DNA of 64,000 bases from an uncultured Planctomycetales bacterium (GTDB lineage: Bacteria > Omnitrophota > Gorgyraeia > Zapsychrales > Zapsychraceae): assembly GCA_964630825.1 (NCBI GenBank), contig CAZVZR010000002.1, positions 19,648 through 83,647 of the forward strand, in the 5' to 3' direction. A program made the translations under genes and the position numbers. Positions 4,602-31,603 of this stretch are shown here, piece by piece. Within the stretch, counting starts at the first letter, position 1. Each line of letters opens with the position of its first letter. A model generated the notes under the pieces. The model worked only from the letters and a program-made list of their open reading frames with translations. It did not search any database and was not told where the DNA came from.

Positions 4602-4624
4602 AATAAGTTGATAAGGGCAAAATT

Positions 4625-6207: not shown

Positions 6208-6213
6208 GAAGAA

Positions 6214-8695: not shown

Positions 8696-8701
8696 TTGTC
8701 C

Positions 8702-10461: not shown

Positions 10462-10540
10462 AAAGTCTTCTTGCCTATAGGCCCAGCTGTTGTTATGTAA
10501 ACTTAAAGATTCCGGCTCGTAAACAGGTACATCTATTCCG

Positions 10541-11641: not shown

Positions 11642-11804
11642 TTTTTAAAAAAATATTTTCTTAATAATCTAGTATTTCGACAACGGCGGTGTATGTAAGT
11701 TTTAAAATGAAGAAATTAATTTGTCCGGCCAATAATTTCGTATATACTAAACTGTCTTTACCTAAATTGTCAAATTGATTGAGATTAGAATATTTTAACA
11801 AAAA

Positions 11805-14295: not shown

Positions 14296-14353
14296 GTGGC
14301 CGGGGAATTTTTTGCATTTTTTGGACTTAAATTCCTTAGGGCTTAATGAGTTA

Positions 14354-16486
14354 ATGCCTAATATGAAAATAAAAATTATTGGGATTTTTATATTCATCGC
14401 AGTGGCCTGCCTACTTATCTTTCTTAGGAAAGAAGTTTTAATATCAAAAAATTATTCTCTGCAGTCTTTAATGCAACGGCGGATAGTAGATTTAAAAAGG
14501 GACTTAAGGAGGTTACCTAAGGGACACCAGTTGGAAAGATTTAATATTTTAGGCGAATTGGGTTTTTCGGCTCTTATTCTCAACCGGCATGAGGAGTCCG
14601 AATCATATTATTTAGAAGCTCGGGAAGTACTTAAAAATCTGCAATTAACGAAGTATGAATTGGTGGAGAACGCTCAACCGTTTTATCTGGATATGGCGCT
14701 GAATTATTTGAAATGGGCGGATAAAGATAACGCAAAAGAGAAGAAAATTCAGAAAGCAACAGCTCTTTTATACGAATACCTAGGGTTAGACCATGATAAT
14801 CTGACAGCTTATTGGTTACTCAACTTATGTTATTTAAAGCTCGAGCGCTACGATGAGCTTGAAGAAAAGTACAAGGTGCTGTTTCCTGGTTTAGGAGCGC
14901 AGGGTAGTTTATCTTTGTTTAAAAATATTGCGCCTAAATTAAAGGTGGATGTCTTGGGATACCTAGGTGGTATAGTTATCGAGGATTTTGATAATGATGG
15001 GTTCCTGGACATTATGGTATCTGATTATGATGCCGGGGCTCAGTTGCGGTATTTTCATAATAATGGTAACGGATCATTTACGGATAAAACTCAGGAAGCT
15101 CATTTGACTGGAGTTGTGGGCGGGCGGAATCTCGTGCAAGCAGATTATGATAATGATGGCTTTATTGATGTCTTTGTTGTGCGCGGTGTTGGGTATGATG
15201 GCTCAAATTTACTTTTGCATAATAACGGTGATGGTACGTTTAGTGACGTGACATTCGAGGCTGCACCAAGCGGCATGGGTTCTTTTTCCATGGTGGCGGC
15301 ATGGTCGGATTTTGATAATGACGGCGATCTCGATCTTTTCGTCGGTAATGCGGTCGGGAGAATCACCGATACATTATTGAGTTATCGTTACCATAATGAA
15401 TCAAAGAGTAAGAAAGAAATTTCTTTTGAAAATTATCTCTTCCTTAATGATGGTAAGGGGCATTTTAAGAACATCGCCAAACAAGCGGGAGTTGATAGGA
15501 CTTTTTACCTGTATGGTGCAAGCTGGGGAGATTTTAATAATGATCGTTTCTCCGATCTTTATGTTTCAACATACAACGGCAATAACTTACTTTTTCGCAA
15601 TAATCGTGATGGAACGTTTACTGATGTATCTGAAGTATTTGGGCCAACTAAGCCTTGGACCGGGTCATCGGCATGGTTTTGGGATTATAATAACGACGGT
15701 AATTTGGATATTTTTGCTTCACAAAATCATTTAGATGAAAATATAACAGTTAAAAGTTACACCTCACCACCTTATGCAGAGCAATTTTTACCGGCTCTTT
15801 ATGAGGGCAGCAAGGACGGCCGATTCCGTAATGTAGCGCCGAAAAAAGGTTTTCAAGTTGCTTCGTCTTCACCCGGCTCTAATTTCGCTGATTTGGATAA
15901 TGACGGTTATCCAGATATATTCTTGGGTAATTTGGGACTATTTGTTTATGGCTTATCTGTTAACAGAATTTATCATAATAGACAAGGCGAAAGTTTTGAC
16001 GTCGCGGGGAATTGGATCGGGGCGGATATTATCCATCAAGATATTGGCGGTGTTGCTTTCGGGGATTTGGATAATGACGGAGATCAGGATATTTATTTAA
16101 ATACCGGGGGAGTGATTTGGCAGGACAATGATGTATTATTAGAAAATCCCGGATTTGGCAACAATTGGATAAAGATCAGGTTAGTTGGAAAAGTTTCTAA
16201 CCGTTCGGCAATCGGCGCTCGGATAAGGGCTGATATAATCGAAGGAAATCAGAAGCGAAGCGTCTATGCTTATGTTGATAGCGGTGGGAAGTGTGGGTCT
16301 AACAGTTTACAGCAGCATTTGGGTTTAGGCAAAGCGGTGAATGTAGATACACTTGAAATTTACTGGCCGACATCAAATACAACTCAAGTATTTCATAATG
16401 TACCGGCGAATGTGTCGCTTAAAATTGTCGAAGGTGAGGATAAATACAGCGTTATTGAGTTACCAGCCGTGAATAATTCTCGGTAA
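14354..16486 (+). CDS. CRTAC1-family protein: TPR-like N-terminus, FG-GAP/VCBS repeats and a C-terminal ASPIC/UnbV domain
   Basis: Repeated FDNDGFLDIMVS, YDNDGFIDVFVV and FDNDGDLDLFVGN blocks. C-terminal NNWIKIRLVGKVSNRSAIGARIRA (ASPIC/UnbV). Signal-anchor MPNMKIKIIGIFIFIAVACLLIF. Start chosen at the first in-frame ATG. Confidence 0.75.
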   Translation: MPNMKIKIIGIFIFIAVACLLIFLRKEVLISKNYSLQSLMQRRIVDLKRDLRRLPKGHQLERFNILGELGFSALILNRHEESESYYLEAREVLKNLQLTKYELVENAQPFYLDMALNYLKWADKDNAKEKKIQKATALLYEYLGLDHDNLTAYWLLNLCYLKLERYDELEEKYKVLFPGLGAQGSLSLFKNIAPKLKVDVLGYLGGIVIEDFDNDGFLDIMVSDYDAGAQLRYFHNNGNGSFTDKTQEAHLTGVVGGRNLVQADYDNDGFIDVFVVRGVGYDGSNLLLHNNGDGTFSDVTFEAAPSGMGSFSMVAAWSDFDNDGDLDLFVGNAVGRITDTLLSYRYHNESKSKKEISFENYLFLNDGKGHFKNIAKQAGVDRTFYLYGASWGDFNNDRFSDLYVSTYNGNNLLFRNNRDGTFTDVSEVFGPTKPWTGSSAWFWDYNNDGNLDIFASQNHLDENITVKSYTSPPYAEQFLPALYEGSKDGRFRNVAPKKGFQVASSSPGSNFADLDNDGYPDIFLGNLGLFVYGLSVNRIYHNRQGESFDVAGNWIGADIIHQDIGGVAFGDLDNDGDQDIYLNTGGVIWQDNDVLLENPGFGNNWIKIRLVGKVSNRSAIGARIRADIIEGNQKRSVYAYVDSGGKCGSNSLQQHLGLGKAVNVDTLEIYWPTSNTTQVFHNVPANVSLKIVEGEDKYSVIELPAVNNSR

Positions 16487-17183
16487 TTTCACGAGAATTT
16501 CCCTCCTCTAAAATTTTTCCCTTCTTTAACCAAATCACGCGGTCACAGCTTTTCAAATGGGCCATATTATGATCGACAAAAATAATTGTTGTTCCTTCCG
16601 CCGCTTTTTTGATTAATGCCTGTTTAAATAATTCAACATACTGTTGATCAAGATTATTTGCCGGCTCATCTAAAAGAAGGATATCGGGGTCACAATGCAT
16701 GGCTATGGCAAAGATGAAACGGCTTATCATTCCCATGGATAACTGATTGAGCTTTGTGTCTTGGCGGCCTTGAAGCCCGGCCATTTTGATAATAGAAGGA
16801 ATTTTTTCTTTAATGGTTTTTCGGGTAAGTCCAAATAAGGAGCAATATAAATAGATATTATCAAGAAGCGTTAAACGGATTCTAAAGGCTTGGCTTAGGC
16901 CAATGAAGGAAACAATATGCCCGTGCACCTTGATTTCCCCTTGGTCGGGCGTGTAAATACCGGCAATGAGGCTTATCAAAGTAGTTTTTCCTGCACCATT
17001 GTCACCTATAATTCCGACGATTTCTCCGGCTTTAATGGAAAAGGAAACATTTTGTATGGCCCACAGGTATTTTTGGGTTTCTTCTTTAGCGAAAAATTGA
17101 ATAAACTTAGTCAGCGAATCTTGAGGATGAGAATCCCGGACAAGAAACCGTTTCGATAAATTATTGACGACGATGCGGTCCAT
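16452..17183 (-). CDS. ABC transporter ATP-binding protein, Wzt/TagH/KpsT-like polysaccharide exporter, lacking a C-terminal carbohydrate-binding domain
   Basis: Walker A GIIGDNGAGKTTL. Signature LSMGMISR. Walker B ILLLDEP. The 3' end overlaps the convergent CRTAC1-like gene by 35 nt. Confidence 0.8.
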   Translation of the reverse strand: MDRIVVNNLSKRFLVRDSHPQDSLTKFIQFFAKEETQKYLWAIQNVSFSIKAGEIVGIIGDNGAGKTTLISLIAGIYTPDQGEIKVHGHIVSFIGLSQAFRIRLTLLDNIYLYCSLFGLTRKTIKEKIPSIIKMAGLQGRQDTKLNQLSMGMISRFIFAIAMHCDPDILLLDEPANNLDQQYVELFKQALIKKAAEGTTIIFVDHNMAHLKSCDRVIWLKKGKILEEGNSREITENYSRLVTQ

Positions 17184-17824
17184 TAGATAAATTCAGGGAT
17201 TTTTTTTGTTAATTTTTGAAATAACATATGCCCTATTAAAAAAAATAGCAGGCTTTGAACAACCAAGCCTCCAACTAGCCAAGCCTGAGGCAGGCGTTCA
17301 TAAATAATCAAATCTCTGGCGATGGTGATGAAATAGTAGAGAGGATTGATTTTGTTAATTAAAAACAGCACGGGATAATCATTAGCGGAGTAAAAAATGG
17401 GAGTGGCAAACCAAAATAACTGTGAGACAAAAAGCCAAATATTGCTTAAGTCCTTAAAATGAACGGTTAAGGAAGATAAAGCCAGGCAAACTCCATAGCT
17501 GAAAATCATAAAAAATAATAAAAGTAACGGGTAATACAATAGATTAAAGAGCGATAATTTGAAGTATAGCAAGAAAATCGCGAAGACAAAAATTTCAAAC
17601 AAATGGGCATAAAAATTTTTTAAGATAATACAGCCAATAAGAGCTTCTAAAGGAAATTTTATAGATTTGATGACAACACGGCTTTCATCCAGAATGCGAG
17701 TTGCTTCGGCAGTGACAAGGCGAAAATAGTTAAAGAGAATAACTCCTAAAAGAAGATAGAGAGGATATCCGGGCACACTAGTACCGAGATTGTGGGAGAA
17801 TATTACTAAGAGGAGGGTAAACAA
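17183..17824 (-). CDS. ABC-2 type transporter permease (Wzm/TagG-like)
   Basis: Six hydrophobic helices. Immediately upstream of, and start/stop-coupled to, the ATPase gene. Confidence 0.7.
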   Translation of the reverse strand: MFTLLLVIFSHNLGTSVPGYPLYLLLGVILFNYFRLVTAEATRILDESRVVIKSIKFPLEALIGCIILKNFYAHLFEIFVFAIFLLYFKLSLFNLLYYPLLLLFFMIFSYGVCLALSSLTVHFKDLSNIWLFVSQLFWFATPIFYSANDYPVLFLINKINPLYYFITIARDLIIYERLPQAWLVGGLVVQSLLFFLIGHMLFQKLTKKIPEFI

Positions 17825-17950: not shown

Positions 17951-19729
17951 ATGCTTTCAACAGCCATCGGTCTAATTCTCTTTCTGTTTCCTTTATTATT
18001 AGTTTATCGTTTCCAAGATAAAATTTTAGGTTTTGTCTATATTCTTTCTGGAATTATTGCCGGACATCTCATTATTGCTCTAGTGACCCAGGCCTTAAAT
18101 ATTTTTACCTATCCCTGTATTATTTTTGTTCACACTATAATTATGTTATTGGTTATAGGCGATATCATCAAGGATAAAAATTTTCGTTTAATTTTTTTAA
18201 AAAAATTGAAAGTAGATTGGATATTTATTCTAAGTTTAATCATTATATTTATTCATCTTTACCAAGTCCATTACAATTATTCCGGAAAATATTCAACAGT
18301 TGTTTTAAATCCAACCTTTCAGGAAGCGAGGGGGATGGTTTATCCCTACCCCTATTTCGTGGATGAATGGCATGCCATTATCTTTACGAAATATGCAATA
18401 CGGTATAATACATTGGCGTTAACCAATCCATTGTTACCTTTTCATTCTCTCATCCCGAATTTTGCTTTTGTTTTTCACGGTTTCCTGGCCGAACTTTTTG
18501 TTTTATTTTCCCTCGACCCTCTTAAATATTATGTACCGTTAACTATGATTTGCAGCATGCTTATCTGCATTTTAATTTATTGGCTACTGCGTTATGAGAA
18601 AGCAGGAAAATTAACAGCAGCGATGGCGAGTTTGTCAACCTTATACATTACCAATGGGGCTAATCTGCCGGGCTTGTGGACACTGATTCCAGCGACGATG
18701 ACGGTTATTTGCCTTTTATTAGCTTTTTTCTTTGTTATTGCAAAAGATTTCAGGGTGGTGGTTGTTGCGCTGTTAATGGGTTTGGCTTTTTACCCGGCAG
18801 CGCTGTTTTTTTATTTAATAATTTTTATAGCCGCTGTTATAGGCGATCGAAAATTGATCTTAAGAGATAAAATAAATTTAAGCGCCATATTGTTATTGGG
18901 TATTTTTATTGTTGGGGGCGTTCATGCAGGGGCGTATTGGGGAATGGGGAAAAGCTTTAGCAGCTTACTAAAAAACAGGGTTTATGCGGAAAATTTGATT
19001 ACAGATTCTATTCCTCAATACGTCATGGGAGATATTGTTCCGGTACCGATTATTATTTTTGCGGCGGTAGGTTTTTTAAAGATCTGGCGACGGCGCCCTT
19101 GGCTGGCCGGATTGCTGGTTTTAGGTTTGTCGTATTGGCTTTTTTATGCGTTTTCGACAAAGCGGATTCTTATCGATTATCAACGCGTGGTTATTTTGAC
19201 TTCTATTATTTTGGTTATTATATCGGGGTATGGGTTGGATGTTGTGGTAACAGCTGTTTCAAAAAGGTGGCCACCTTTTTTGGTAAAAATAGCTAGTGCC
19301 CTGGTGTTGCTGTTTTCATTTTCAATTTCTTTTCACTATACACAAAGAGAACAATGGAGAAAACTGGTTGTTATAAATCAGAAAACCAAAGAAGTTTATC
19401 ATTCGGCAGCACCGGCGAACCGTTATCTGCAGGAAGATGATTTAGAAATTTTTAGAAATATTAAGCGCCGTATTTTTCTTGCTCCGCCTTGGAAAGGGAC
19501 GGTGGTCGCTGCCGCTACGGATAATTTTCCTTTAACCAGTAAGGTCGGGGTCATAGGCGATACCATCGATGTATACCGAAAATTTATGAGTGCCGATTGT
19601 GAGCAGAAATATACTTCTGCAAGAAATACGTACTTGGATTATGTGTATGTTCCATTTTTTAAATGTCCGCATTTTGAGCCTCTGATCCAAAGCCGGGAAG
19701 GCCTGGTTTTGTACCGCTTTTTGCCGTAA
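17951..19729 (+). CDS. Polytopic membrane protein (over 12 TM helices plus a ~130-aa C-terminal soluble domain). Possible GT-C-fold glycosyltransferase.
   Basis: Dense TM topology over ~460 aa. An acidic motif (PYFVDEWH) sits in an early extracytoplasmic loop. The gene lies between the ABC-2 exporter and the giant surface protein. Confidence 0.5.
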   Translation: MLSTAIGLILFLFPLLLVYRFQDKILGFVYILSGIIAGHLIIALVTQALNIFTYPCIIFVHTIIMLLVIGDIIKDKNFRLIFLKKLKVDWIFILSLIIIFIHLYQVHYNYSGKYSTVVLNPTFQEARGMVYPYPYFVDEWHAIIFTKYAIRYNTLALTNPLLPFHSLIPNFAFVFHGFLAELFVLFSLDPLKYYVPLTMICSMLICILIYWLLRYEKAGKLTAAMASLSTLYITNGANLPGLWTLIPATMTVICLLLAFFFVIAKDFRVVVVALLMGLAFYPAALFFYLIIFIAAVIGDRKLILRDKINLSAILLLGIFIVGGVHAGAYWGMGKSFSSLLKNRVYAENLITDSIPQYVMGDIVPVPIIIFAAVGFLKIWRRRPWLAGLLVLGLSYWLFYAFSTKRILIDYQRVVILTSIILVIISGYGLDVVVTAVSKRWPPFLVKIASALVLLFSFSISFHYTQREQWRKLVVINQKTKEVYHSAAPANRYLQEDDLEIFRNIKRRIFLAPPWKGTVVAAATDNFPLTSKVGVIGDTIDVYRKFMSADCEQKYTSARNTYLDYVYVPFFKCPHFEPLIQSREGLVLYRFLP

Positions 19730-19836: not shown

Positions 19837-22800
19837 ATGCCCAACCTGTATAGTCACGGTCAATTCCGAATGATTCCATTTAGGCAAGTAATCCTTATTT
19901 GCCTTTTTATTTTAATTATTACAACACAAAGCGAAGCTGTCACCGTTAGCGGTACCGTCTACACCGACGAAGGCACCAGCCGCATGAGCGGCGGGGTGAC
20001 GGTGCGAGTTGTCGTGGAAGGGGTTTCGGCCGGGACAGATACGACCAGCACGACCAATTGCGCTACCAATGCCGCTCCCTGCGGTGCTTACAATGTCAGT
20101 GGAGTAACTATCAACGCGACAACTAATAGTATAATCGCTTATCTGGATACTAATGGTGGCAATGTCGGGACTGTTATTACACACAGCACATCAGCTGTCT
20201 TAGACAACACAACAGGTTTTGATATTTATCAAAATCATATCGCGATTGAGATGTTTCCTAATAACGGCAATGCTAATAAATCAGCTAGCAATCCTTGGAT
20301 AGATTCCGCCAATGATGCCTGTGATTATGATAAAGATAATGATACGGATATGCCCTATCAATGCTATCAGTATTTATTGTATGGCGATAATAATATTGAA
20401 TTTTATATTTGGTCAGCATCCACGTTTTCTTGGAATTCTGCCTCAACAGCACCTAGGTTAAATGTAGATGGTGTGGATATTCGGGGGCGCCTTTTGAGAG
20501 CAACAGCTAATTTTTATGTGGTTGACCGCGGGGATTGGAATTGCAGCAATTGTACACACGATGTTTCCACAACGGATATAACAACATTCGGCAGCGGTAG
20601 CAAGGCGCATTCTATTACGACAGGGAATGCACCTTTTGGATTAGTTGTCATTGACGAAGCAGGGCAAACCGTATCGACTACTGACGAGCTTTTAATAAAT
20701 GGTAATGTTGGGATAACTGTAACCGCCGGGACTTTGTCTCTGGGGGCAAAACTTCAGGACTATGGCGACTTGACCATTGGGGCTACAGGAACTTTAACAA
20801 CAAATAATTATCAAGTAAATGTGGGGGATGATTTTGTGATTAATTCCGGTGGTGTATTTAATGCCGGCTCGGGAACAGTGAGTTTTTCTGGCTTCACAAA
20901 CACCATGGCTGATCAAACCGTTACTACCTCCGGCCAGTTATTTAATAATGTATATATTAATAATACCCAGGGATCCAGTTCCGATGATATCATTCCTACG
21001 GATGATTGGGATATTGATGGGAATTTAATCATTAATGACGGGAATTTAAATATGAGCACGAATAATAAATCTATTATCCTGGCCGGGAATTGGGTGAGAG
21101 AACCGAATACAAATCATACTTGGGCTAAGGGGACGGGTAATTCGACAGTTACTTTCGATGGCGGCAGTACATCGACGTTTTCCAATAATGGCCTTAATGC
21201 GTCAAGAGTTGATAATTCAACTTACGATTTCAATAAAGTGGACGTGACCAACAATACGACTTTAAAGCTAGTGAATGGAGAACTTGAAGTAGATGGCACC
21301 TTGACGATTGCCTCGGGCGCGACGGTGAATCTTAATGGGCAGACACTGGATCTCAATGGGACGCTCAATAATAACGGAACGTTAAAGATACAGGGAAACG
21401 AAACCGATGTGGATATCGGTGTCATGGATAATGATTCGGGGACCGTCATGTATATTGGCGACGGTAATGGGACATCAAATGTCTATGCGGTACGTAATCA
21501 CAGCGCCGGCGCTTACTATAACCTGACCATCAATGATACAAATTCTACGGTCGACACGTTTACTTTTGATGCGCAAGCAGCGATTAATGGCACGCTTACG
21601 GTTGCCAACGGAAATACACTGGGCTTAAATGGTCAGACTCTGAATATGACCGGGGCGACGTTGTCGAATTCGGGGACGATCACAATGTTTGGTTCGGAAA
21701 CAGTGACTGTTGGGACATGGGACAATGACAGCGGGACCATAGTGTATGTCGGTAACGGCGATGGAGTAGTAGATACACGCAATATTTTGAACCCATCTTC
21801 CGTTGCGGGAACAGGTGATTTTTATAATTTGAGAATAAATGATACCAATTCTACCAAAGATGTATTTGCGTTGCAGGGGGACTTGGACGTTGACGGTGAT
21901 TTAACGATATCTTCAGGGACGTTGGATGTTTCTACCAATAATTATGCCATTGTCTTAGCCGGGACGTGGTTTAATAGCGGTACATTTGCTTCCCGGAGTG
22001 GGACGGTCACTTTCAATGGGACAATAGGCCAAGGGATTACTTTTTGCAGTGCCTGCAACACGACTTCATTTAGTTCGGTTGTGCTTACCAATGCTTCGAG
22101 TAGCGGCGTGACGTTTCTTGACGGTTTTACGACAACGAACTTGACAGATCAAACAGCGGGGTCTACTGTTACGGTTGCAGCGAGCAGTACATCAACGATT
22201 TCGGGAGCAATGACTATGCAGGGAACAAGTTCAAGCCAAGTACGGCTTAAAAGCGGCACGAGCTCAACACAGTTTACGTTTGATGTTCCTGGGGTCAAAC
22301 AAAACGTTTTTAATGTCAATGTGTCTGACTCAGCAGCCAGCAGCAATGATATTGTATGCCACAGTTGTACTAACGGCGGCGGCACGGATGCAGCTCAAGC
22401 CAGCCCGCATTGGGAATTTAGCTCCATAATCAGCGGTGTTGTTTACACGGATGAAGGCACCAGCCGCATGAGCGGCGGGGTGACGGTGCGAGTTGTCGTG
22501 GAAGGGGTTTCGGCCGGGACAGATACGACCAGCACGACCAATTGCGCTACCAATGCCGCTCCCTGCGGTGCTTACAATGTCAGTGGAGTAACTATCAACG
22601 CGACAACTAATAGTATAATCGCTTATCTGGATACTAATGGTGGCAATGTCGGGACTGTTATTACACACAGCACATCAGCTGTCTTAGACAACACAACAGG
22701 TTTTGATATTTATCAAAATCATATCGCGATTGAGATGTTTCCTAATAACGGCAATGCTAATAAATCAGCTAGCAATCCTTGGATAGATTCCGCCAATGAT

Positions 22801-24945
22801 GCCTGTGATTATGATAAAGATAATGATACGGATATGCCCTATCAATGCTATCAGTATTTATTGTATGGCGATAATAATATTGAATTTTATATTTGGTCAG
22901 CATCCACGTTTTCTTGGAATTCTGCCTCAACAGCACCTAGGTTAAATGTAGATGGTGTGGATATTCGGGGGCGCCTTTTGAGAGCAACAGCTAATTTTTA
23001 TGTGGTTGACCGCGGGGATTGGAATTGCAGCAATTGTACACACGATGTTTCCACAACGGATATAACAACATTCGGCAGCGGTAGCAAGGCGCATTCTATT
23101 ACGACAGGGAATGCACCTTTTGGATTAGTTGTCATTGACGAAGCAGGGCAAACCGTATCGACTACTGACGAGCTTTTAATAAATGGTAATGTTGGGATAA
23201 CTGTAACCGCCGGGACTTTGTCTCTGGGGGCAAAACTTCAGGACTATGGCGACTTGACCATTGGGGCTACAGGAACTTTAACAACAAATAATTATCAAGT
23301 AAATGTGGGGGATGATTTTGTGATTAATTCCGGTGGTGTATTTAATGCCGGCTCGGGAACAGTGAGTTTTTCTGGCTTCACAAACACCATGGCTGATCAA
23401 ACCGTTACTACCTCCGGCCAGTTATTTAATAATGTATATATTAATAATACCCAGGGATCCAGTTCCGATGATATCATTCCTACGGATGATTGGGATATTG
23501 ATGGGAATTTAATCATTAATGACGGGAATTTAAATATGAGCACGAATAATAAATCTATTATCCTGGCCGGGAATTGGGTGAGAGAACCGAATACAAATCA
23601 TACTTGGGCTAAGGGGACGGGTAATTCGACAGTTACTTTCGATGGCGGCAGTACATCGACGTTTTCCAATAATGGCCTTAATGCGTCAAGAGTTGATAAT
23701 TCAACTTACGATTTCAATAAAGTGGACGTGACCAACAATACGACTTTAAAGCTAGTGAATGGAGAACTTGAAGTAGATGGCACCTTGACGATTGCCTCGG
23801 GCGCGACGGTGAATCTTAATGGGCAGACACTGGATCTCAATGGGACGCTCAATAATAACGGAACGTTAAAGATACAGGGAAACGAAACCGATGTGGATAT
23901 CGGTGTCATGGATAATGATTCGGGGACCGTCATGTATATTGGCGACGGTAATGGGACATCAAATGTCTATGCGGTACGTAATCACAGCGCCGGCGCTTAC
24001 TATAACCTGACCATCAATGATACAAATTCTACGGTCGACACGTTTACTTTTGATGCGCAAGCAGCGATTAATGGCACGCTTACGGTTGCCAACGGAAATA
24101 CACTGGGCTTAAATGGTCAGACTCTGAATATGACCGGGGCGACGTTGTCGAATTCGGGGACGATCACAATGTTTGGTTCGGAAACAGTGACTGTTGGGAC
24201 ATGGGACAATGACAGCGGGACCATAGTGTATGTCGGTAACGGCGATGGAGTAGTAGATACACGCAATATTTTGAACCCATCTTCCGTTGCGGGAACAGGT
24301 GATTTTTATAATTTGAGAATAAATGATACCAATTCTACCAAAGATGTATTTGCGTTGCAGGGGGACTTGGACGTTGACGGTGATTTAACGATATCTTCAG
24401 GGACGTTGGATGTTTCTACCAATAATTATGCCATTGTCTTAGCCGGGACGTGGTTTAATAGCGGTACATTTGCTTCCCGGAGTGGGACGGTCACTTTCAA
24501 TGGGACAATAGGCCAAGGGATTACTTTTTGCAGTGCCTGCAACACGACTTCATTTAGTTCGGTTGTGCTTACCAATGCTTCGAGTAGCGGCGTGACGTTT
24601 CTTGACGGTTTTACGACAACGAACTTGACAGATCAAACAGCGGGGTCTACTGTTACGGTTGCAGCGAGCAGTACATCAACGATTTCGGGGACATTGACGT
24701 TGCAGGGGACACATAGTAGTGAAATGAGACTTAAAAGTAGCAGCGGCGGAACGCAATTTACCCTTAATGTCACTGGCGGTAACCAGAAGGTCTATCATGT
24801 CAATGTGTCTGACTCAGCAGCCAGCAGCAATGATATTAATTGCCGTAGCTGTACCAACGGCGGCGGCACGGATGCAGCTCAAGCCAGCCCGCATTGGGTA
24901 TTTAGCCCGCTGGTAGGTGCCGTGATGCGGGCGGAGGATAACTGA
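19837..24945 (+). CDS. Giant (1702 aa) Asn/Thr/Gly-rich beta-helical surface protein (adhesin or S-layer-like passenger repeats). No C-terminal beta-barrel.
   Basis: N-terminal signal-like segment MIPFRQVILICLFILIITTQSEA. Repetitive GxLxLxGxxxxxG and PATR-like blocks. About 35 N-x-S/T sequons per 828-aa repeat unit. Contains two tandem 2484-bp units. Confidence 0.8.
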   Translation: MPNLYSHGQFRMIPFRQVILICLFILIITTQSEAVTVSGTVYTDEGTSRMSGGVTVRVVVEGVSAGTDTTSTTNCATNAAPCGAYNVSGVTINATTNSIIAYLDTNGGNVGTVITHSTSAVLDNTTGFDIYQNHIAIEMFPNNGNANKSASNPWIDSANDACDYDKDNDTDMPYQCYQYLLYGDNNIEFYIWSASTFSWNSASTAPRLNVDGVDIRGRLLRATANFYVVDRGDWNCSNCTHDVSTTDITTFGSGSKAHSITTGNAPFGLVVIDEAGQTVSTTDELLINGNVGITVTAGTLSLGAKLQDYGDLTIGATGTLTTNNYQVNVGDDFVINSGGVFNAGSGTVSFSGFTNTMADQTVTTSGQLFNNVYINNTQGSSSDDIIPTDDWDIDGNLIINDGNLNMSTNNKSIILAGNWVREPNTNHTWAKGTGNSTVTFDGGSTSTFSNNGLNASRVDNSTYDFNKVDVTNNTTLKLVNGELEVDGTLTIASGATVNLNGQTLDLNGTLNNNGTLKIQGNETDVDIGVMDNDSGTVMYIGDGNGTSNVYAVRNHSAGAYYNLTINDTNSTVDTFTFDAQAAINGTLTVANGNTLGLNGQTLNMTGATLSNSGTITMFGSETVTVGTWDNDSGTIVYVGNGDGVVDTRNILNPSSVAGTGDFYNLRINDTNSTKDVFALQGDLDVDGDLTISSGTLDVSTNNYAIVLAGTWFNSGTFASRSGTVTFNGTIGQGITFCSACNTTSFSSVVLTNASSSGVTFLDGFTTTNLTDQTAGSTVTVAASSTSTISGAMTMQGTSSSQVRLKSGTSSTQFTFDVPGVKQNVFNVNVSDSAASSNDIVCHSCTNGGGTDAAQASPHWEFSSIISGVVYTDEGTSRMSGGVTVRVVVEGVSAGTDTTSTTNCATNAAPCGAYNVSGVTINATTNSIIAYLDTNGGNVGTVITHSTSAVLDNTTGFDIYQNHIAIEMFPNNGNANKSASNPWIDSANDACDYDKDNDTDMPYQCYQYLLYGDNNIEFYIWSASTFSWNSASTAPRLNVDGVDIRGRLLRATANFYVVDRGDWNCSNCTHDVSTTDITTFGSGSKAHSITTGNAPFGLVVIDEAGQTVSTTDELLINGNVGITVTAGTLSLGAKLQDYGDLTIGATGTLTTNNYQVNVGDDFVINSGGVFNAGSGTVSFSGFTNTMADQTVTTSGQLFNNVYINNTQGSSSDDIIPTDDWDIDGNLIINDGNLNMSTNNKSIILAGNWVREPNTNHTWAKGTGNSTVTFDGGSTSTFSNNGLNASRVDNSTYDFNKVDVTNNTTLKLVNGELEVDGTLTIASGATVNLNGQTLDLNGTLNNNGTLKIQGNETDVDIGVMDNDSGTVMYIGDGNGTSNVYAVRNHSAGAYYNLTINDTNSTVDTFTFDAQAAINGTLTVANGNTLGLNGQTLNMTGATLSNSGTITMFGSETVTVGTWDNDSGTIVYVGNGDGVVDTRNILNPSSVAGTGDFYNLRINDTNSTKDVFALQGDLDVDGDLTISSGTLDVSTNNYAIVLAGTWFNSGTFASRSGTVTFNGTIGQGITFCSACNTTSFSSVVLTNASSSGVTFLDGFTTTNLTDQTAGSTVTVAASSTSTISGTLTLQGTHSSEMRLKSSSGGTQFTLNVTGGNQKVYHVNVSDSAASSNDINCRSCTNGGGTDAAQASPHWVFSPLVGAVMRAEDN
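19957..24924 (+). repeat. Intragenic tandem duplication of two 2484-bp units. The 2235-bp core (19972-22206) is identical to 22456-24690. The 3' ~200 bp of each unit has diverged.
   Basis: Direct comparison of the text. The track's antisense ORFs 19912-20184 and 22330-22668, and 21222-21449 and 23706-23933, are identical pairs exactly 2484 nt apart. Confidence 0.9.
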
Positions 24946-25191: not shown

Positions 25192-26287
25192 ATGTTAGCT
25201 GACTTAAACAAGCAGATCGATGGCATCACGAAGAAGCTCACGGAGCTAAGGGGGTTTCTTTGACCTGTCCGCTAAAGAAGAAAAAATCCAGGCTATTCAA
25301 GATAAAATGAATCTGCCAAATTTTTGGGACAATGCTGCGGAAGCTAATCAACAAATGCGCGAGTTAAAATATTTAAAAAGCTGTGTTGAGCCTTTTGAAG
25401 AAAGCGCAAAGAAAGTGCAAGAATTTAAAGAGTTGATAGATTTATCGTCCGAAGACGAGGAAATGCTTAAACAAATTGAAGAAGAACTGGGCCAGCTTCA
25501 AAGAACTGTTGATGCTCTCGAATTAAACAGTCTCTTGAGCGGCGAGTTTGACCGCAACAATGCCATTTTAAGCATTAATGCCGGCGCCGGTGGGACAGAA
25601 TCTTGCGATTGGGCGAATATGCTGCTGCGCATGTACACGCGTTGGGCGGATGAAAAAGGTTACAGCGTGAAAACTTTGGACATTCTTCCCGGTGAAGAAG
25701 CGGGAATTAAAAATGTGACCTTGGGCATCGAAGGCGAAATGGCTTATGGTTATCTTAAAAGCGAAAAAGGCGTGCATCGTTTGGTGAGGATTTCTCCGTT
25801 TGATTCTAATAAACGCCGGCACACTTCTTTTGCTTCGGTCGATGTTATTCCGGAAATTGAAGATGATATAAAGATTGAAATTACTCCTGATGAGTTGCGT
25901 ATTGATGTGTACCGCTCTTCCGGGCCGGGCGGTCAAAGTGTGAACACCACCGATTCGGCAGTCAGAATAACACATTTATCGACGGGAATTGTTGTTCAGT
26001 GCCAGAATGAGCGTTCGCAGCTGCAGAACCGCCAGAGTGCGATGAAAATCTTGAAAGCGCGGTTATATGAACTTAAAAGCAAAGAACAGGATGAGAAGAT
26101 GGCCAAAGAACACGGGCAGAAGCAGAAAATCGAATGGGGCAGCCAGATCCGTTCCTATACGATGCAACCGTATTCTCTGGTGAAAGACCACCGCACCGAT
26201 GTAGAAACCGGAAACGTTTCGAAAGTGATGGATGGCGGGATTGATATTTTTATTGAGGCTTTTCTGCGTTGGCGGCCAACAGTTTAG
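25192..26287 (+). CDS. prfB: Peptide chain release factor 2, with a programmed +1 frameshift at 25258-25263 (CTT TGA C)
   Basis: ORF0 is MLADLNKQIDGITKKLTELRGFL-stop. The +1 frame continues DLSAKEEKIQAIQDKMNLPNFWD and carries the RF2 SPF motif (RISPFDS) and GGQ (SSGPGGQSVN). An SD-like AGGGGG lies 3 nt before CTT. Confidence 0.9.
25246..25264 (+). promoter_or_regulatory. RF2 autoregulatory +1 frameshift cassette: internal Shine-Dalgarno AGGGGG, slippery CUU, UGA stop, then C
   Basis: ctaAGGGGGtttCTTTGAcc matches the canonical enterobacterial prfB recoding site AGGGGGUAUCUUUGAC. Confidence 0.85.
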
Positions 26288-26973: not shown

Positions 26974-29900
26974 ATGTTAGACTTCTTACTAAGAAATTCC
27001 TCAGTCCAATCCGCGCAGAAGTATATTGATAAGCTTCAGCCGAAGGTTGAATTGCATATTCCTTCCGACCTGCCGTTGCCGAGCATCTCCGTCGTAAAGA
27101 AATTTGCGCAAACAGTTTCGCAAGTAAAAGCATTGGAAGAAACTTTGAGCAAACTTTCGGACCAGCAGTTGCGTGCAAAAACCGAAGAGTTTAAAGAAAA
27201 ATATCAAGTGGCCATTAACGAAAAGAAAGACCGGCTTAAGCAGGCCGTCGAAAATTATCAAAAAGCCCTTCAGCCCGAAGAAAAAGAAAGCCTTAACATT
27301 GACAGGGAAAATATTGAGAAGGAGTTTGTTGCGGCCAAGAAAACAATTTTGGACGAAATCCTTCCCGAGGCTTTTGCCGTCGTGCGTGAAGCAAGCAAGC
27401 GCACATTGCGCATGCGGCATTTCGACGTGCAGATCTTAGGCGGCATGGTGTTGCATAACGGCGATATTGCTGAAATGACCACCGGGGAAGGAAAAACTTT
27501 GGTGGCGACTTTACCGGCGTACCTTAATGCCTTAACCGGTGAAGGCGTTCATGTCGTGACTGTTAATGATTATCTCGCCAAGCGCGACCGCGAATGGATG
27601 GGGCCAGTTTATGAATTTTTGGGTTTGGTCGTCGGGGTCATCCAGCATGATATGGGCCCAGCCGAGCGCCAACATGCCTATAATTGCGATATTACCTATG
27701 GAACCAACAACGAGTTCGGTTTTGATTATTTGCGTGATAACATGGTTAGTTTTAAAGAAGAAATGGTCCAGCGCAAGCATAATTTTGCCATTGTCGATGA
27801 GGTTGACAGTATTCTCGTCGATGAAGCGCGTACACCTTTGATTATTTCCGGCCCGGCGGAAGAGTCCACCGATAAATATTACCGTGCCTTTAATATTTCC
27901 AAACAGCTCAAAGGCAAGCGCGTTGTCGATATGGAAAAAGAAAAAATCGAAGCCAAATACCGCGACGAGAGTTTTGAAAGTTTAACGAAAGGCTATGATT
28001 ACGTCGCGGATGAAAAAGCGAAAGCGGTTTCGTTGACGGAAGAAGGAGAAGAAAAAGCGGCAAAAATGTTCGGCGTCGAAACGTTGCACGACATGGAAAC
28101 CATTGAATATCGGCATCATATCTTGCAATCGCTAAAAGCCAAAGAATTTTTCTTCATCGATGTTGATTATGTCGTGCGTGACGGCGAGGTCATTATTGTC
28201 GATGAGTTTACCGGGCGCCTCATGCCCGGCCGCCGCTGGTCAGATGGGTTGCATCAGGCGGTTGAGGCTAAAGAAGGCATCAAGATTGAGCGGGAAAATC
28301 AGACACTGGCGACGATTACTTTTCAAAATTATTTTAGATTGTACGAGAAATTATCCGGCATGACCGGTACGGCCGTTACCGAGGAGATTGAATTTAAAAA
28401 AATTTATGATTTGGATGTTACGGTTGTTCCGACGAATAAACGGGTTAACCGGACGAATCATCCGGACAGCATTTATAAAAATATAAAAGAAAAATACGCG
28501 GCTGTCGTCAATGAAATTGCGGAGTTGCATAAGACCGGCCGCCCGGCATTAGTGGGGACCATTTCGATTGAAAAATCAGAGCGGCTTTCTTCTTTGTTGA
28601 AACAAAAAGGCGTTCCACACCAAGTTTTAAATGCCAAGTTTCATGAAATGGAAGCGCAGATCATCGCGCAGGCCGGCCGTTTTAAAGCTGTCACCATCGC
28701 CACGAACATGGCCGGGCGAGGAACGGATATTGTTTTAGGCGGGAACCCAGAATATTTGGCGAAGAATTTAGCGGAAGAAAAAAATAAAGATAATAAAGAT
28801 GAGGCCGAACGCCAGGCGACGGTCCAAAAATTTTTAGAACAGCTGCGCAAACAGTGCAAGGAAGAACACGATAAAGTTGTTGAGTTAGGCGGGCTGCATG
28901 TTATCGGCACCGAGCGGCATGAATCCCGCCGGATTGACAATCAGCTGCGCGGCCGCCAGGGCCGCCAGGGTGATCCGGGTTCATCGCGGTTTTATGTTTC
29001 GCTGGAAGACGACCTCATGCGCCTTTTTGGCCCGGCGATGGAACGCGTCGGCGGGCTTATGGATAAATTAGGCGAAGCCGGCGAAGCTCTCGAGCACCCG
29101 TGGCTATCAAAGGCGCTGGAAAATGCCCAGAAGCGCGTCGAGGCGCATAATTTTGAAATCCGCAAACATTTACTTGAATACGACGATGTCATGAACAAAC
29201 AAAGGGAAGTGATTTACGGCATGCGCCGTTCTGTTTTAGACAGCCAGGACGTTAAATATTTAATAGTGGAGGCTGTTTTGGAAACCGTCAACGGCATGGT
29301 CAATCAATGTTTAGCGCCGGCAGCGGAAGATTCCCAGCCGGATTTGGAAGGGTTTGTTATTTATTTAAAATCGAAATTCGGTTACGAATTTAATATTGCG
29401 AAAGAGCAACTGGCCGGTATGACCAAAGAAGAAGTTTTTGACCGGATCAGCGAGGATTTAAAGAAGTTATACGACGAGCGGGAAAAAGAATTCGGCGCCG
29501 AAGCCATGCGGCATTTGGAAAGAATGCTTTTGTTAAATACCATCGACGCGAAATGGAAGGACCACCTTTATGCCATGGATCAACTCAAAGAGGGCGTGGG
29601 GTTGAGGTCTTATGGGCAACGTAATCCTTTGATTGAATATAAAAAGGAAGGCTTTGAAATGTTTCAGATGATGTACGGCTCGATCAATCAGGAAGTTGCT
29701 GAGATCATTTTCCGTATTCAGCCAATTAATCAAGAGCTCCATCGGCCGCGCGGTGTATTCAGCGCCTTGCCCAAGAAACTTGTTCACGATGAAATTTCCG
29801 GCATGTCGCATATGGCTTCTCAACAACCGCCTATGCAAGACATGTCGCCACAACGCGGCGCCCCGCCGTCGGCTCAAAAGCCACGAGAAGCCGAACCTGT

Positions 29901-29985
29901 CCGCAATACCGGCCCCAAGGTCGGGCGTAATGACCCCTGTCCTTGCGGCAGCGGCAAAAAGTATAAAAAATGCTGCGGGGCGTAG
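26974..29985 (+). CDS. secA: Preprotein translocase ATPase SecA
   Basis: [70 protein letters not shown]-terminal zinc finger [14 protein letters not shown]. Confidence 0.95.
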
Positions 29986-29986
29986 C

Positions 29987-31603
29987 ATGATTTCTCTCGC
30001 CTTAAGTTTCTTCTCCGGCATATTATTAATTTTTGCTTTTCCTCAAACCGATATCTGGCCATTAGCGTGGGTCGGGTTAATCCCGCTTTTTTACGCGCTT
30101 GACGGGAAAAAGCCTTTTTCGGCTTTTGGTGCCGGGTATTTATGCGGAATAGTTTTTTTTAGCGGGACACTTTATTGGCTGGGGCATGTGACAGTTATTG
30201 GCACGGTTGTTTTGATTTTCTATCTTTCCTTATATTTCGGTTTATTTGGAATTCTCTACAGTTATTTTGTCGATTTTCCGTTTACGACAAAAAGCATTCT
30301 TCTTCCGAGCAGCTGGGTCGCTCTTGAATATTTGCGAGCACATTTATTTTCTGGTTTTGGCTGGGTAAGCCTGGGGCATTCGCAGTATAAATTTTTGCCG
30401 CTTATTCAAATCGCCGATGTAACGGGTGTGGGGGGTGTTTCTTTTCTTCTTGTTTTATCTAATTTAATTTTAAAGGAACAAGTCGGCCGCCGTCATATAT
30501 TAAACCCAAATTTTGCATCGGATACGAACTACCGTGAGTACTCCCAAAACAAAAGGATGCATGCAAAAGGTGGGTTTAACCCCGACAAGCGTGGTCAAAT
30601 CTCGGCGAGATTTGACCAGTCGGCCCTACGGGCGGATTTTGCTATTGCAAAATCCGGGTTAAGAGTAACGTGGGCTTTTATTTTCATTGTTTTTGTTGTG
30701 TTAAGTTACGGCTATTTTTGTTTATCCCAACCGTACGGGGCAAAAACCATTAATGCCGCAGTTGTTCAAGGCAACGTCCCGCAGCATTTAAAATGGGATG
30801 AGCCTTTATGGCCCAAGACCTTTGATGAACATATAACCTTAACCAAGGAAGCTGCCCAAGCGCACGCTGATTTGGTTGTCTGGCCGGAAACATCTTTGCC
30901 CGGAATTTTAGAAGAGGATGTCCAATATCCTGCCGCCTTGTCGGATTTTATCAAATCGATACAAATTCCTTTATTGTACGGTGTTGTCACCAAGGAAGAT
31001 CATTATTACAATGCTGCGGTCTTATTGTCAAAGGACGGAGATGTTCTTGATAAATACAGGAAGATTCATTTGGTTCCTTTTGGTGAGTTTGTTCCTTTCC
31101 GCAAAGAGTTGCCGTTTTTGGCCTCTTTGGTGCAAGTAGAAGATTTTTCCCCGGGCAGAAAATATACTTTATTTTCACTAGCGCAGAACAAGTTTGCCGT
31201 TTTAATTTGTTTTGAAGATACTCTCGCTAATCTCGTGCGGGAATTTGTCCGGCAAGGGGCGCAACTTTTGGTGAATATCACCAATGATGCCTGGTTTATG
31301 GATACAAAAGAGCCGTTTATTCATTTACAATCGGCTGTCTTTTCCGCCGTTGAAAATAAGCGCGATCTTATCCGTGCGGCGAATACCGGCGTGAGTTGTT
31401 TTATTGATCGTTATGGGCGGGTGACGAAATATTTAGAGGATTCCCGCGGGAAAAAAACATTTACTCCCGGTATGGCTTTACACGAAGTTCATTTTTATGA
31501 CGGCCTGACCTTTTATACAAAATTCGGAGATTTTTTTACATATTTGTGTTTTTTATGTATACTATTAGCGATTTTCAAAAAAGGCCGAACACGTCCCGTT
31601 TGA
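29987..31603 (+). CDS. lnt: Apolipoprotein N-acyltransferase
   Basis: N-terminal multi-TM domain. C-terminal CN-hydrolase domain with VVWPETSLPG, KIHLVPFGEFVP and VLICFEDT (E-K-C triad). The first ATG lies 1 nt after the secA stop. The track ORF starts upstream, inside secA. Confidence 0.85.
   Translation: MISLALSFFSGILLIFAFPQTDIWPLAWVGLIPLFYALDGKKPFSAFGAGYLCGIVFFSGTLYWLGHVTVIGTVVLIFYLSLYFGLFGILYSYFVDFPFTTKSILLPSSWVALEYLRAHLFSGFGWVSLGHSQYKFLPLIQIADVTGVGGVSFLLVLSNLILKEQVGRRHILNPNFASDTNYREYSQNKRMHAKGGFNPDKRGQISARFDQSALRADFAIAKSGLRVTWAFIFIVFVVLSYGYFCLSQPYGAKTINAAVVQGNVPQHLKWDEPLWPKTFDEHITLTKEAAQAHADLVVWPETSLPGILEEDVQYPAALSDFIKSIQIPLLYGVVTKEDHYYNAAVLLSKDGDVLDKYRKIHLVPFGEFVPFRKELPFLASLVQVEDFSPGRKYTLFSLAQNKFAVLICFEDTLANLVREFVRQGAQLLVNITNDAWFMDTKEPFIHLQSAVFSAVENKRDLIRAANTGVSCFIDRYGRVTKYLEDSRGKKTFTPGMALHEVHFYDGLTFYTKFGDFFTYLCFLCILLAIFKKGRTRPV

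What the first reader, a model, noticed from the sequence alone, without database searches (positions are those of the whole stretch)
19957..24924. Perfect 2.2-kb tandem duplication inside the giant surface-protein gene
Nucleotides 19972-22206 are identical, base for base, to 22456-24690. The period is 2484 bp, which is 828 codons and so in frame. The last ~200 bp of each unit are only ~70 % identical, with short re-conserved islands (GTCAATGTGTCTGACTCAGCAGCCAGCAGCAATGATATT). An identical core with diverged edges points to a very recent duplication, ongoing gene conversion or expansion/contraction of the repeat. It could also be an assembly artefact of a repeat collapsed or expanded from short reads. 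If real, copy-number variation would change the length and sequon load of the surface protein.
Basis: seen in the sequence. Interest (0 to 1): 0.65.

Follow-up and report, generated by a model that had tools for sequence, protein, structure and literature searches.

The report
Homogenised two-module secreted beta-solenoid gene
A 1,702-residue secreted repeat protein of a probable Omnitrophota bacterium is built from two old 828-residue modules whose central 2,237 bp were very recently made identical, most likely by gene conversion; this is an ordinary kind of event for bacterial surface-protein genes.

Summary
The period is 2,484 bp, which is 828 codons, in frame in ORF 19837-24945.

It is not a fresh duplication. 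Homology continues at low identity on both sides of the identical tract. Outside two perfect islands, synonymous sites in these flanks are saturated (pS 0.71). The core has 0 differences at about 526 synonymous sites. So an old two-module gene was recently homogenised by non-reciprocal recombination.

The module is an unannotated family with no Pfam or PDB sequence match (992 cluster representatives). Homologues carry 2-3 tandem modules, joined by the same conserved cap-to-head junction as in the window. Two homologues hold about 1-kb tracts of 80-98% DNA identity at periods of 1,776 and 2,394 bp. The tandem arrangement is therefore very likely genuine.

No reads or close relatives were available. 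Copy number (at least 2) and literal 100% identity remain unverified.

The kind is known: a repeat-bearing surface-protein gene under concerted evolution. Interest is low to moderate.

Side note: the upstream gene (17951-19729) models confidently as a GT-C glycosyltransferase most like the oligosaccharyltransferases PglB, STT3 and AglB. It sits beside this sequon-enriched protein.

The parts
19837..24945 (+). ORF of 1,702 aa plus stop: signal peptide, module 1, module 2 and a 10-aa tail
   Evidence: The same protein is P0001 in NCBI, on a contig of 85,610 bp, as a singleton cluster. No Pfam or NCBIfam family matches.
19837..19935 (+). N-terminal Sec-type signal peptide (aa 1-33, ...LFILIITTQSEA|VTV); no lipobox Cys
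   Evidence: Read from the translation; inferred from sequence, no predictor was run.
19948..22431 (+). Module 1 (828 aa), limits set by homology: head SGTVYTDEG..., all-beta solenoid body, cap ...CxSCTNGGGTDAAQASPHWEF
   Evidence: AF2 model of the unit: pLDDT 63.7, pTM 0.61, short beta strands throughout.
22432..24915 (+). Module 2 (828 aa), in register with module 1
   Evidence: tblastn: 97% aa identity over 825 aa.
19969..22205 (+). Identical tract, copy 1 (2,237 bp)
   Evidence: 0 differences at about 526 synonymous and 1,706 non-synonymous sites.
22453..24689 (+). Identical tract, copy 2 (2,237 bp)
19948..19968 (+). Old, diverged left flank of module 1 (pairs with 22432-22452; 15/21 identical, mostly synonymous changes)
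22432..22452 (+). Old, diverged head of module 2 (SGVVYTD); it occurs only after the cap of module 1
   Evidence: The junction motif is conserved in homologues.
22206..22431 (+). Cap of module 1, diverged from the cap of module 2 (59-63% nt identity outside the two islands)
24690..24915 (+). Cap of module 2, followed by a 9-aa tail and the stop codon
22313..22353 (+). Perfect 41-bp island inside the diverged cap (= 24797-24837); encodes NVNVSDSAASSNDI
   Evidence: Two runs of at least 41 bp never arose in 100,000 random placements of the tail mismatches.
22372..22414 (+). Perfect 43-bp island inside the diverged cap (= 24856-24898); encodes NGGGTDAAQASPHW

Best explanation
The gene encodes a Sec-exported, all-beta (probably beta-solenoid) extracellular protein made of two tandem 828-residue modules. 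Each module has a small beta-sandwich head (GTVYTDEG...), a long solenoid body and an ~80-residue cap (DS..AS..DI.C..CTN.GG.D.A.ASPHW.F).

The two-module layout is old. It is shared with distant homologues, and the unit ends in this gene are saturated with synonymous change. Very recently, a non-reciprocal recombination event copied about 2.2 kb of one module over the other. This could have been gene conversion or gap repair using the sister module as template. The caps and the first seven codons kept their old divergence. The two perfect islands of 41 and 43 bp in the cap are best read as patchy ends of this or earlier conversion tracts.

The result is a 2,237-bp perfect in-frame direct repeat. 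RecA-type unequal exchange between the copies would give in-frame alleles of one module (874 aa) or three modules (2,530 aa). The gene is thus predisposed to length variation.

Shown: the identity pattern, the reading frame, the old divergence of the flanks, and the family-wide tandem architecture and junction. Inferred: the recombination mechanism, the extracellular adhesin or fibre role, and the length variation.
For: - The identical tract is 2,237 bp at period 2,484 (828 codons).
- Homology continues on both sides at 59-71% identity.
- Nei-Gojobori on the flanks outside the islands gives pS 0.71 (dS ~2.2) and dN 0.31; the core gives 0/526 and 0/1,706.
- The max-run test gives P ~4e-59, and the two cap islands give P < 1e-5.
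- Homologues P0002, P0005, P0016, P0017, P0022 and P0026 carry 2-3 tandem modules that are 33-67% identical within a protein, with mosaic identity profiles.
- The cap-to-head junction of the window (…SDSAASSNDIVCHSCTNGGGTDAAQASPHWEFSSIIS|GVVYTDEG) matches junctions in P0022, P0165, P0192, P0200, P0005, P0227 and P0254.
- Other family members hold large-period near-identical stretches: P0171 at 798 aa, P0131 at 592, P0213 at 880, P0133 at 804.
- At DNA level, L086 has ~1 kb at ~95% identity with sharp edges, and L087 has ~1 kb at 80-98%.
- The unit models as all-beta. Its weak best fold matches are beta-helical adhesins and autotransporter passengers, plus a transthyretin-like match that I assign to the head.
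- A signal peptide is visible in the translation.
Against: - No reads, no second assembly and no close relative exist. Copy number and literal 100% identity rest on one assembly.
- Short-read bubble-popping or long-read polishing can erase small differences between repeat copies. Loop resolvers report the minimum copy number.
- A preprint on Omnitrophota long genes found that strict identical nucleotide tandems never exceed 10% of a CDS (10.64898/2026.06.07.730766). Here they make up 88%, so this gene is an outlier.
- RecA-type exchange across ~60%-identical flanks is inefficient, so the exact route of the conversion is unclear.
- The fold assignment is weak (pLDDT 63.7; no Foldseek hit below E 0.1).
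Confidence: 0.75

Rival explanations
1. Assembly artefact: the genome has only one module, and the assembler threaded a repeat or strain-variant loop twice.
For: The source looks like a metagenome-assembled contig of an uncultured lineage; the best SecA match is a Candidatus Omnitrophota MAG at 64%. The contig could not be retrieved, so depth and read type are unknown. The protein is a singleton in 5.8 billion clusters.
Against: The path from cap 1 back into the core runs through a unique 21-bp unit head (22432-22452). It differs from the first head at 6 positions yet encodes the same motif. The whole junction matches the conserved inter-module junction of distant homologues. Such a sequence has no place in a one-module gene. 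Multi-module architecture is the family norm.
Confidence: 0.07
2. The tandem is real, but the assembly distorts it. The true copies may differ at a few sites (collapsed by bubble-popping or polishing), or there may be more than two modules (loop traversed the minimum number of times). This does not exclude the main explanation.
For: This is general behaviour of de Bruijn and polishing pipelines (own knowledge). Work on Alp genes notes that short reads cannot give repeat numbers (PMC13106166). In homologues, comparable tracts are 80-98% identical, not 100%.
Against: Nothing in the sequence speaks against it. It simply cannot be tested here.
Confidence: 0.3
3. A brand-new tandem duplication of the whole module, followed by very fast, targeted diversification of the cap (positive selection or a diversity-generating retroelement).
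For: The variable part is a short C-terminal segment, as in DGR targets, and 24 of the 40 differing codons are non-synonymous.
Against: Synonymous sites in the flanks are saturated (pS 0.71) while the core has none, and dN/dS is ~0.14. Divergence also sits at the 5' end of the unit. The mismatch spectrum is not adenine-specific. No reverse transcriptase turned up among the ORFs scanned across about 1-43.5 kb; ORFs beyond ~43.5 kb were not scanned.
Confidence: 0.03

Closest known systems
Alp/Rib family (alpha C, Rib, R28, Dysalp) of streptococcal surface proteins
   Same: A signal peptide is followed by in-frame tandem repeats that are identical at nucleotide level. Repeat number varies (2-14), and short-read assemblies cannot resolve it (PMC13106166).
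   Different: Alp repeats are ~80-aa Ig-like beads with an LPXTG anchor, in Gram-positive pathogens. Here the unit is 828 aa, all-beta solenoid-like, present in two copies, without an LPXTG, in a probable Omnitrophota bacterium. Copy-number variation has not been shown.
Helicobacter pylori CagY repeat regions
   Same: Intragenic direct repeats are arranged so that recombination always gives in-frame deletions or duplications, producing size variants of a surface-exposed protein (PMC2194252).
   Different: CagY has many short repeats in a type IV secretion component. Here a single pair of 2.2-kb repeats lies in a stand-alone secreted protein.
Beta-helical adhesins: autotransporter passengers (EspP, Hap, Ag43, pertactin) and TpsA proteins (EtpA, HxuA)
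   Same: These are the best, though non-significant, structural neighbours of the module body. Some homologues are named 'filamentous hemagglutinin family' or 'autotransporter-associated beta strand repeat' by their sources.
   Different: The window protein has no beta-barrel translocator, no TPS domain and no PATR Pfam hit. Foldseek E-values are at least 0.16.
Repeat-rich long proteins of Omnitrophota (10.1101/2023.11.21.568195; 10.64898/2026.06.07.730766)
   Same: Same probable phylum, with extracellular repeat architecture. Repeats within one polypeptide are the rule there.
   Different: Those proteins have 10,000-147,000 aa with HEAT, dockerin or TSP3 content, and their nucleotide tandems have decayed: none exceeds 10% of a CDS under the strict criterion. 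This protein has 1,702 aa, and 88% of its CDS is a perfect tandem.

Membership tests
Surface-protein genes with nucleotide-identical in-frame tandem repeats (functional class: Alp/Rib-like, CagY-like) | In-frame tandem repeats with near-100% nucleotide identity | tested here: met
   2,237 of 2,237 bp identical at a period of 828 codons.
Surface-protein genes with nucleotide-identical in-frame tandem repeats (functional class: Alp/Rib-like, CagY-like) | Exported or surface-exposed product | tested here: inconclusive
   An N-terminal signal peptide is visible. No anchor or outer-membrane export signal was found. Location is inferred only.
Surface-protein genes with nucleotide-identical in-frame tandem repeats (functional class: Alp/Rib-like, CagY-like) | Repeat number varies between strains or within populations | not testable with these tools
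   No relative above 50% identity in any collection, and the source contig and reads are not retrievable.
Alp/Rib family proper | Rib-type ~80-aa repeats and a C-terminal LPXTG anchor | tested here: not met
   No Pfam hit. The translation ends ...HWVFSPLVGAVMRAEDN, without an LPXTG.
Type Va autotransporter | C-terminal beta-barrel translocator domain | tested here: not met
   No Pfam or NCBIfam hit. Only 10 residues follow module 2.
Two-partner secretion exoprotein (TpsA/FHA) | N-terminal TPS domain (PF05860) | tested here: not met
   No hit. Module 1 starts directly after the signal peptide.
Type IX secretion cargo | C-terminal sorting domain (PF18962) | tested here: not met
   No hit in the window protein. 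Homologues P0003, P0018 and P0029 do carry PF18962.
Diversity-generating retroelement target | Template/variable repeat pair with adenine-specific differences, plus a nearby reverse transcriptase | tested here: not met
   The mismatch spectrum is spread over all base changes. No reverse transcriptase among the neighbouring ORFs scanned.
Unannotated 'GTVYTDEG ... PHW.F' module family (large beta-solenoid proteins of Omnitrophota, Planctomycetota and other uncultured bacteria) | Sequence homology of the module, including the head motif and the cap motif, and the tandem cap-to-head junction | tested here: met
   E-values from 4.9e-54 downwards in significance. 992 / 390 / 70 representatives at E <= 1e-3 / 1e-10 / 1e-30. 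Motifs and junctions align.
Giant Omnitrophota proteins (Archaeovorin and dockerin types) | At least 30,000 aa with HEAT/TPR/enzyme or dockerin/TSP3 content | tested here: not met
   1,702 aa and no such Pfam domains. Definitions taken from 10.1101/2023.11.21.568195.
STT3/PglB/AglB oligosaccharyltransferases (for the upstream neighbour 17951-19729 only) | GT-C membrane fold with an OST-type C-terminal globular domain | tested here: met
   [not shown]
STT3/PglB/AglB oligosaccharyltransferases (for the upstream neighbour 17951-19729 only) | WWDYG motif and a match to the STT3 sequence family | tested here: not met
   No WWDYG in the translation. No STT3 Pfam hit. A profile of 20 homologues finds no PDB sequence. 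The invariant motifs are YPYPYFxDEW, NLPxxW and PWKGT.

The most novel reading that the evidence does not exclude
The tandem-module protein is the acceptor of a previously undescribed protein-glycosylation pathway. The directly upstream 592-aa GT-C enzyme is oligosaccharyltransferase-like in fold but lacks WWDYG. Its family is conserved across Omnitrophota, CPR bacteria and DPANN archaea, next to Wzm/Wzt, GT2/GT4 and sulfotransferase genes. In this reading it transfers a sulfated glycan to the N-X-S/T-rich modules. Recombination between the two identical cores would then add or remove 828-aa modules, tuning both the length and the glycan load of a surface fibre used for cell-cell attachment.
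Probability: 0.1. Interest if true: 0.65.

Novelty: new member of a known kind. Interest (0 to 1): 0.3.

Why it matters
If the two-module structure is confirmed, the gene is a clean natural example of concerted evolution inside a single bacterial gene at an unusually large unit size (2.5 kb). It has datable strata: saturated flanks against a core with no differences. It also marks a locus where short-read MAGs are likely to misreport length.

The finding defines an unannotated module family of about 830 residues, with roughly a thousand 50%-identity clusters, found in large extracellular proteins of uncultured bacteria. The practical consequence is modest: copy-number variation would change the length of a probable adhesin or fibre.

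The neighbouring oligosaccharyltransferase-like GT-C family may be the more valuable lead.

Tried and rejected
- Exact-protein look-ups of the gene and of its neighbour found no contig on record, so the source, depth and assembler are unknown.
- Scans of genome contigs and metagenome contigs with the module found no relative.
- A SecA-anchored synteny scan gave only distant genomes. The best was 64%, from an Omnitrophota MAG whose contig starts inside secA, so no orthologous locus could be compared.
- Tandem Repeats Finder reports nothing because its longest period is 500.
- Pfam, NCBIfam and PDB sequence searches of the module and of its three parts gave nothing meaningful. The NCBIfam PRK07333 hit (30 bits against a cut-off of 549) is noise.
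- Foldseek of the module model gave no hit below E 0.1.
- A DGR reading was rejected on the mismatch spectrum and the absence of a reverse transcriptase.
- In homologue P0002 the similar block is old (~80% nt, longest exact match 29 bp), so it is not a recent conversion.
- A self-BLAST screen for internal repeats failed because contained HSPs are culled. It was replaced by a k-mer diagonal screen.
- Association of the GT-C neighbour with large secreted proteins is inconsistent: present in the window, L082 and L083, absent within 8 kb in L084 and L085.
Full report
**Observation**

With an offset of 2,484 bp, the window is identical to itself from 19969 to 22205 (copy at 22453-24689). That is 2,237 bp without a mismatch. 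2,484 bp is 828 codons, and both copies lie in one ORF, 19837-24945 on the + strand, of 1,702 aa. No other repeat of 40 bp or more exists in the 64-kb window. Tandem Repeats Finder is blind to it because of its 500-bp period limit.

**Anatomy of the repeat**

Homology does not stop at the ends of the identical tract.

- Upstream, 19948-19968 pairs with 22432-22452 at 15 of 21 bases. The changes are mostly synonymous (SGTVYTD vs SGVVYTD).
- Further upstream, the signal peptide and the cap of module 1 are unrelated (3 of 21).
- Downstream, 22206-22431 pairs with 24690-24915. In order, the segments are 67/107 identical, a perfect 41-bp island, 11/18, a perfect 43-bp island, and 10/17.

The true repeat unit is therefore 19948-22431 and 22432-24915. 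The protein is a signal peptide, module 1, module 2 and ten more residues.

**Age strata**

Nei-Gojobori counts were made on the flanks outside the two islands. They give pS = 0.71 (dS about 2.2, saturated) and dN = 0.31. The core has no difference at about 526 synonymous and 1,706 non-synonymous sites.

Placing the 60 mismatches at random over the 2,484 bp never gave a clean run longer than 493 bp in 20,000 trials; the analytic bound is about 4e-59. Two clean runs of at least 41 bp in the tail never arose in 100,000 trials.

A new duplication cannot carry saturated divergence at both unit ends. So the two-module structure is old, and the core was homogenised recently. With 1e-9 to 1e-10 substitutions per site per generation, zero differences in 2,237 bp puts the event within roughly 0.7-7 million generations (95% bound; inference).

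The two islands coincide with the most conserved cap motifs. They are also identical at every synonymous site, so I read them as patchy conversion rather than protein-level constraint. This is inference.

**What the module is**

Neither Pfam nor NCBIfam recognises the protein or its parts, and no solved structure matches by sequence.

Homologues exist at about 30-45% identity. There were 33 in the word-indexed search. In the exhaustive search of 1.84 billion representatives there were 992, 390 and 70 at E <= 1e-3, 1e-10 and 1e-30, and none above 50% identity except the protein itself. They are large proteins of 1,000-7,000 aa. Where the sources name them, they come from Omnitrophota, Planctomycetota and similar uncultured bacteria.

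Reading them shows the same module:

- a head, GTVYTDEG(V/S)TNIG...;
- a long run of short beta-strand repeats (…FYNLT…G.LDVNG.LTI..GTLD…);
- a cap, LTF.AG.TQT....LTL.G..G..L.L.S.....W......V.YVDVKDS.A......NSGGN...W.F.

An AlphaFold2 model of module 1, built with a ten-sequence alignment, is of moderate quality (pLDDT 63.7, pTM 0.61). It consists of short beta strands throughout. Foldseek finds nothing significant. The best weak matches are beta-helical proteins (MpAFP, EspP, EspC, Hap, Ag43, EtpA, HxuA, pertactin). One match is transthyretin-like (3qva, probability 0.93), and I assign it to the head.

I therefore call the protein a Sec-exported beta-solenoid protein, probably an adhesin or fibre, with moderate confidence. 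It has no autotransporter barrel, TPS domain, T9SS C-terminal domain or LPXTG. How it crosses or attaches to the outer membrane is unknown.

**Is the tandem real?**

Three lines of evidence say yes.

1. The family is modular in tandem. P0002, P0016, P0017 and P0026 have two module heads, and P0005 and P0022 have three. Within-protein identities are 33-67%, with mosaic profiles.
2. The window's inter-module junction is …VNVSDSAASSNDIVCHSCTNGGGTDAAQASPHWEFSSIIS|GVVYTDEG. It matches the junctions of unrelated family members, for example P0022 …DVKDSQVSVSDATCTNCTNAGGNDDGEASPHWVFNSTISIS|GTVYTDEG, and also P0165, P0192, P0200, P0005, P0227 and P0254. The head of module 2 is a distinct, diverged copy of the head of module 1. 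Such a sequence has no place in a one-module gene and cannot be made by joining existing pieces.
3. Other members carry large-period near-identical stretches: P0171 at 798 aa, P0131 at 592, P0213 at 880, P0133 at 804. At DNA level, L086 (P0171) has about 1 kb at ~95% identity with sharp edges at a period of 2,394 bp. L087 (P0131, GCA_028689495.1) has about 1 kb at 80-98% identity at a period of 1,776 bp.

Partial homogenisation of big modules thus recurs in the family. The window is the most extreme and most recent case.

**What cannot be verified**

The source contig (NCBI, 85,610 bp) is not in the contig index. No close relative is present in the genome or metagenome collections. A SecA-anchored scan found only distant genomes, the best being a Candidatus Omnitrophota MAG at 64%.

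Read depth, read type and strain variation are therefore unknown. From general knowledge of assemblers, a simple loop is usually traversed the minimum number of times. Bubble-popping or polishing can erase a few differences between repeat copies. The safe statement is 'at least two modules, cores at or very near 100% identity'.

A recent preprint on Omnitrophota long genes reports that strict identical nucleotide tandems never exceed 10% of a CDS there (10.64898/2026.06.07.730766). Here they cover 88%. This gene is an outlier, which is a reason both for interest and for caution.

**Mechanism and consequences**

Shown:

- an old tandem of two modules;
- a recent identical tract bounded on both sides by old divergence;
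- everything in frame.

Inferred:

- The tract arose by non-reciprocal recombination between the modules, through gene conversion or double-strand-gap repair templated by the sister module. The ends probably lie in short conserved stretches.
- The caps may have stayed apart because they are in different situations: cap 1 abuts module 2, whereas cap 2 is the free C-terminus.
- The perfect 2.2-kb direct repeat is now a substrate for unequal exchange. That would give in-frame one-module (874 aa) or three-module (2,530 aa) alleles, as in Alp/Rib proteins (PMC13106166) and CagY (PMC2194252).

A DGR-type explanation for the variable cap is rejected. The differences are not adenine-specific, synonymous sites are saturated, and no reverse transcriptase turned up among the neighbouring ORFs scanned.

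**Context and side finding**

Upstream lies a glycan-synthesis cluster: GT2, GT4, a sulfotransferase, radical-SAM enzymes, a UbiA-type prenyltransferase and a divergently oriented ABC-2 (Wzm/Wzt-like) transporter. There is also an FG-GAP/ASPIC protein. Downstream are prfB, secA, lnt and a lipid A acyltransferase, which fits a diderm bacterium.

The gene directly upstream (17951-19729, 592 aa) is a polytopic membrane protein without annotation.

- With 20 homologues it models at pLDDT 89.3 and pTM 0.91.
- Foldseek ranks PglB, STT3 and AglB first (E 4.5e-7 and up).
- It lacks WWDYG and has its own invariant motifs.
- Its family occurs in CPR bacteria and DPANN archaea.
- It is repeatedly linked to Wzm/Wzt, GT2/GT4, sulfotransferase or APS-kinase, and methyltransferase genes.

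The tandem-module protein has 71 N-X-S/T sites against 44.9 +/- 5.6 expected from its composition. That it is glycosylated by this neighbour is an untested idea.

**Verdict**

This is a new member of a known kind: a repeat-bearing secreted or surface protein gene under concerted evolution. It sits in an unannotated module family. Interest is 0.3.

Noticed in passing
[not shown]
   Followed up: partly
loci L082, L083, L084, L085 and window 2506-17824: Homologues of the GT-C protein share a conserved neighbourhood across distant lineages. It comprises an ABC-2 membrane protein plus ABC ATPase (Wzm/Wzt-like), GT2, GT4, a sulfotransferase (sometimes APS kinase), a methyltransferase and radical-SAM genes. 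This suggests an ABC-transporter-dependent sulfated-glycan pathway whose last step is the GT-C enzyme.
   Followed up: partly
window 19837-24945: N-X-S/T sequons are enriched in the tandem-module protein: 71 observed against 44.9 +/- 5.6 in composition-preserving shuffles. Ten fit the bacterial D/E-X-N-X-S/T form. Part of the excess may simply reflect recurring N-x-T motifs of the solenoid repeats.
   Followed up: partly
window 25192-26287 (+): The release factor 2 gene has the classical programmed +1 frameshift. A short frame-0 ORF starts at ATG 25192 and runs to CTT TGA C at 25258-25264, preceded by a Shine-Dalgarno-like AGGGGG. The PCRF/RF-1 domains continue in the +1 frame (ORF listed from 25307).
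   Followed up: partly
locus L082 13296-18116: In GCA_040960315.1 an unrelated protein of more than 1,607 aa lies 1.5 kb downstream of the GT-C homologue. It is repetitive, with an N-terminal hydrophobic stretch that suggests export, and it runs off the contig end inside near-identical ~100-aa tandem repeats. This may be an example of repeats breaking an assembly.
   Followed up: no
loci L086 1450-2480 (+2394) and L087 1436-2456 (+1776): Two distant family members (P0171, P0131) carry ~1-kb intragenic tracts of ~95% and 80-98% nucleotide identity at large periods, with abrupt or graded edges. These are older counterparts of the window's homogenised tract.
   Followed up: partly
window 29696-31603 vs 26974-29985: The listed TTG-start ORF for apolipoprotein N-acyltransferase (Lnt) overlaps the end of secA by ~290 bp. 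The Lnt N-terminal domain only begins at residue 107 of that ORF, so the real start is probably downstream of secA.
   Followed up: no
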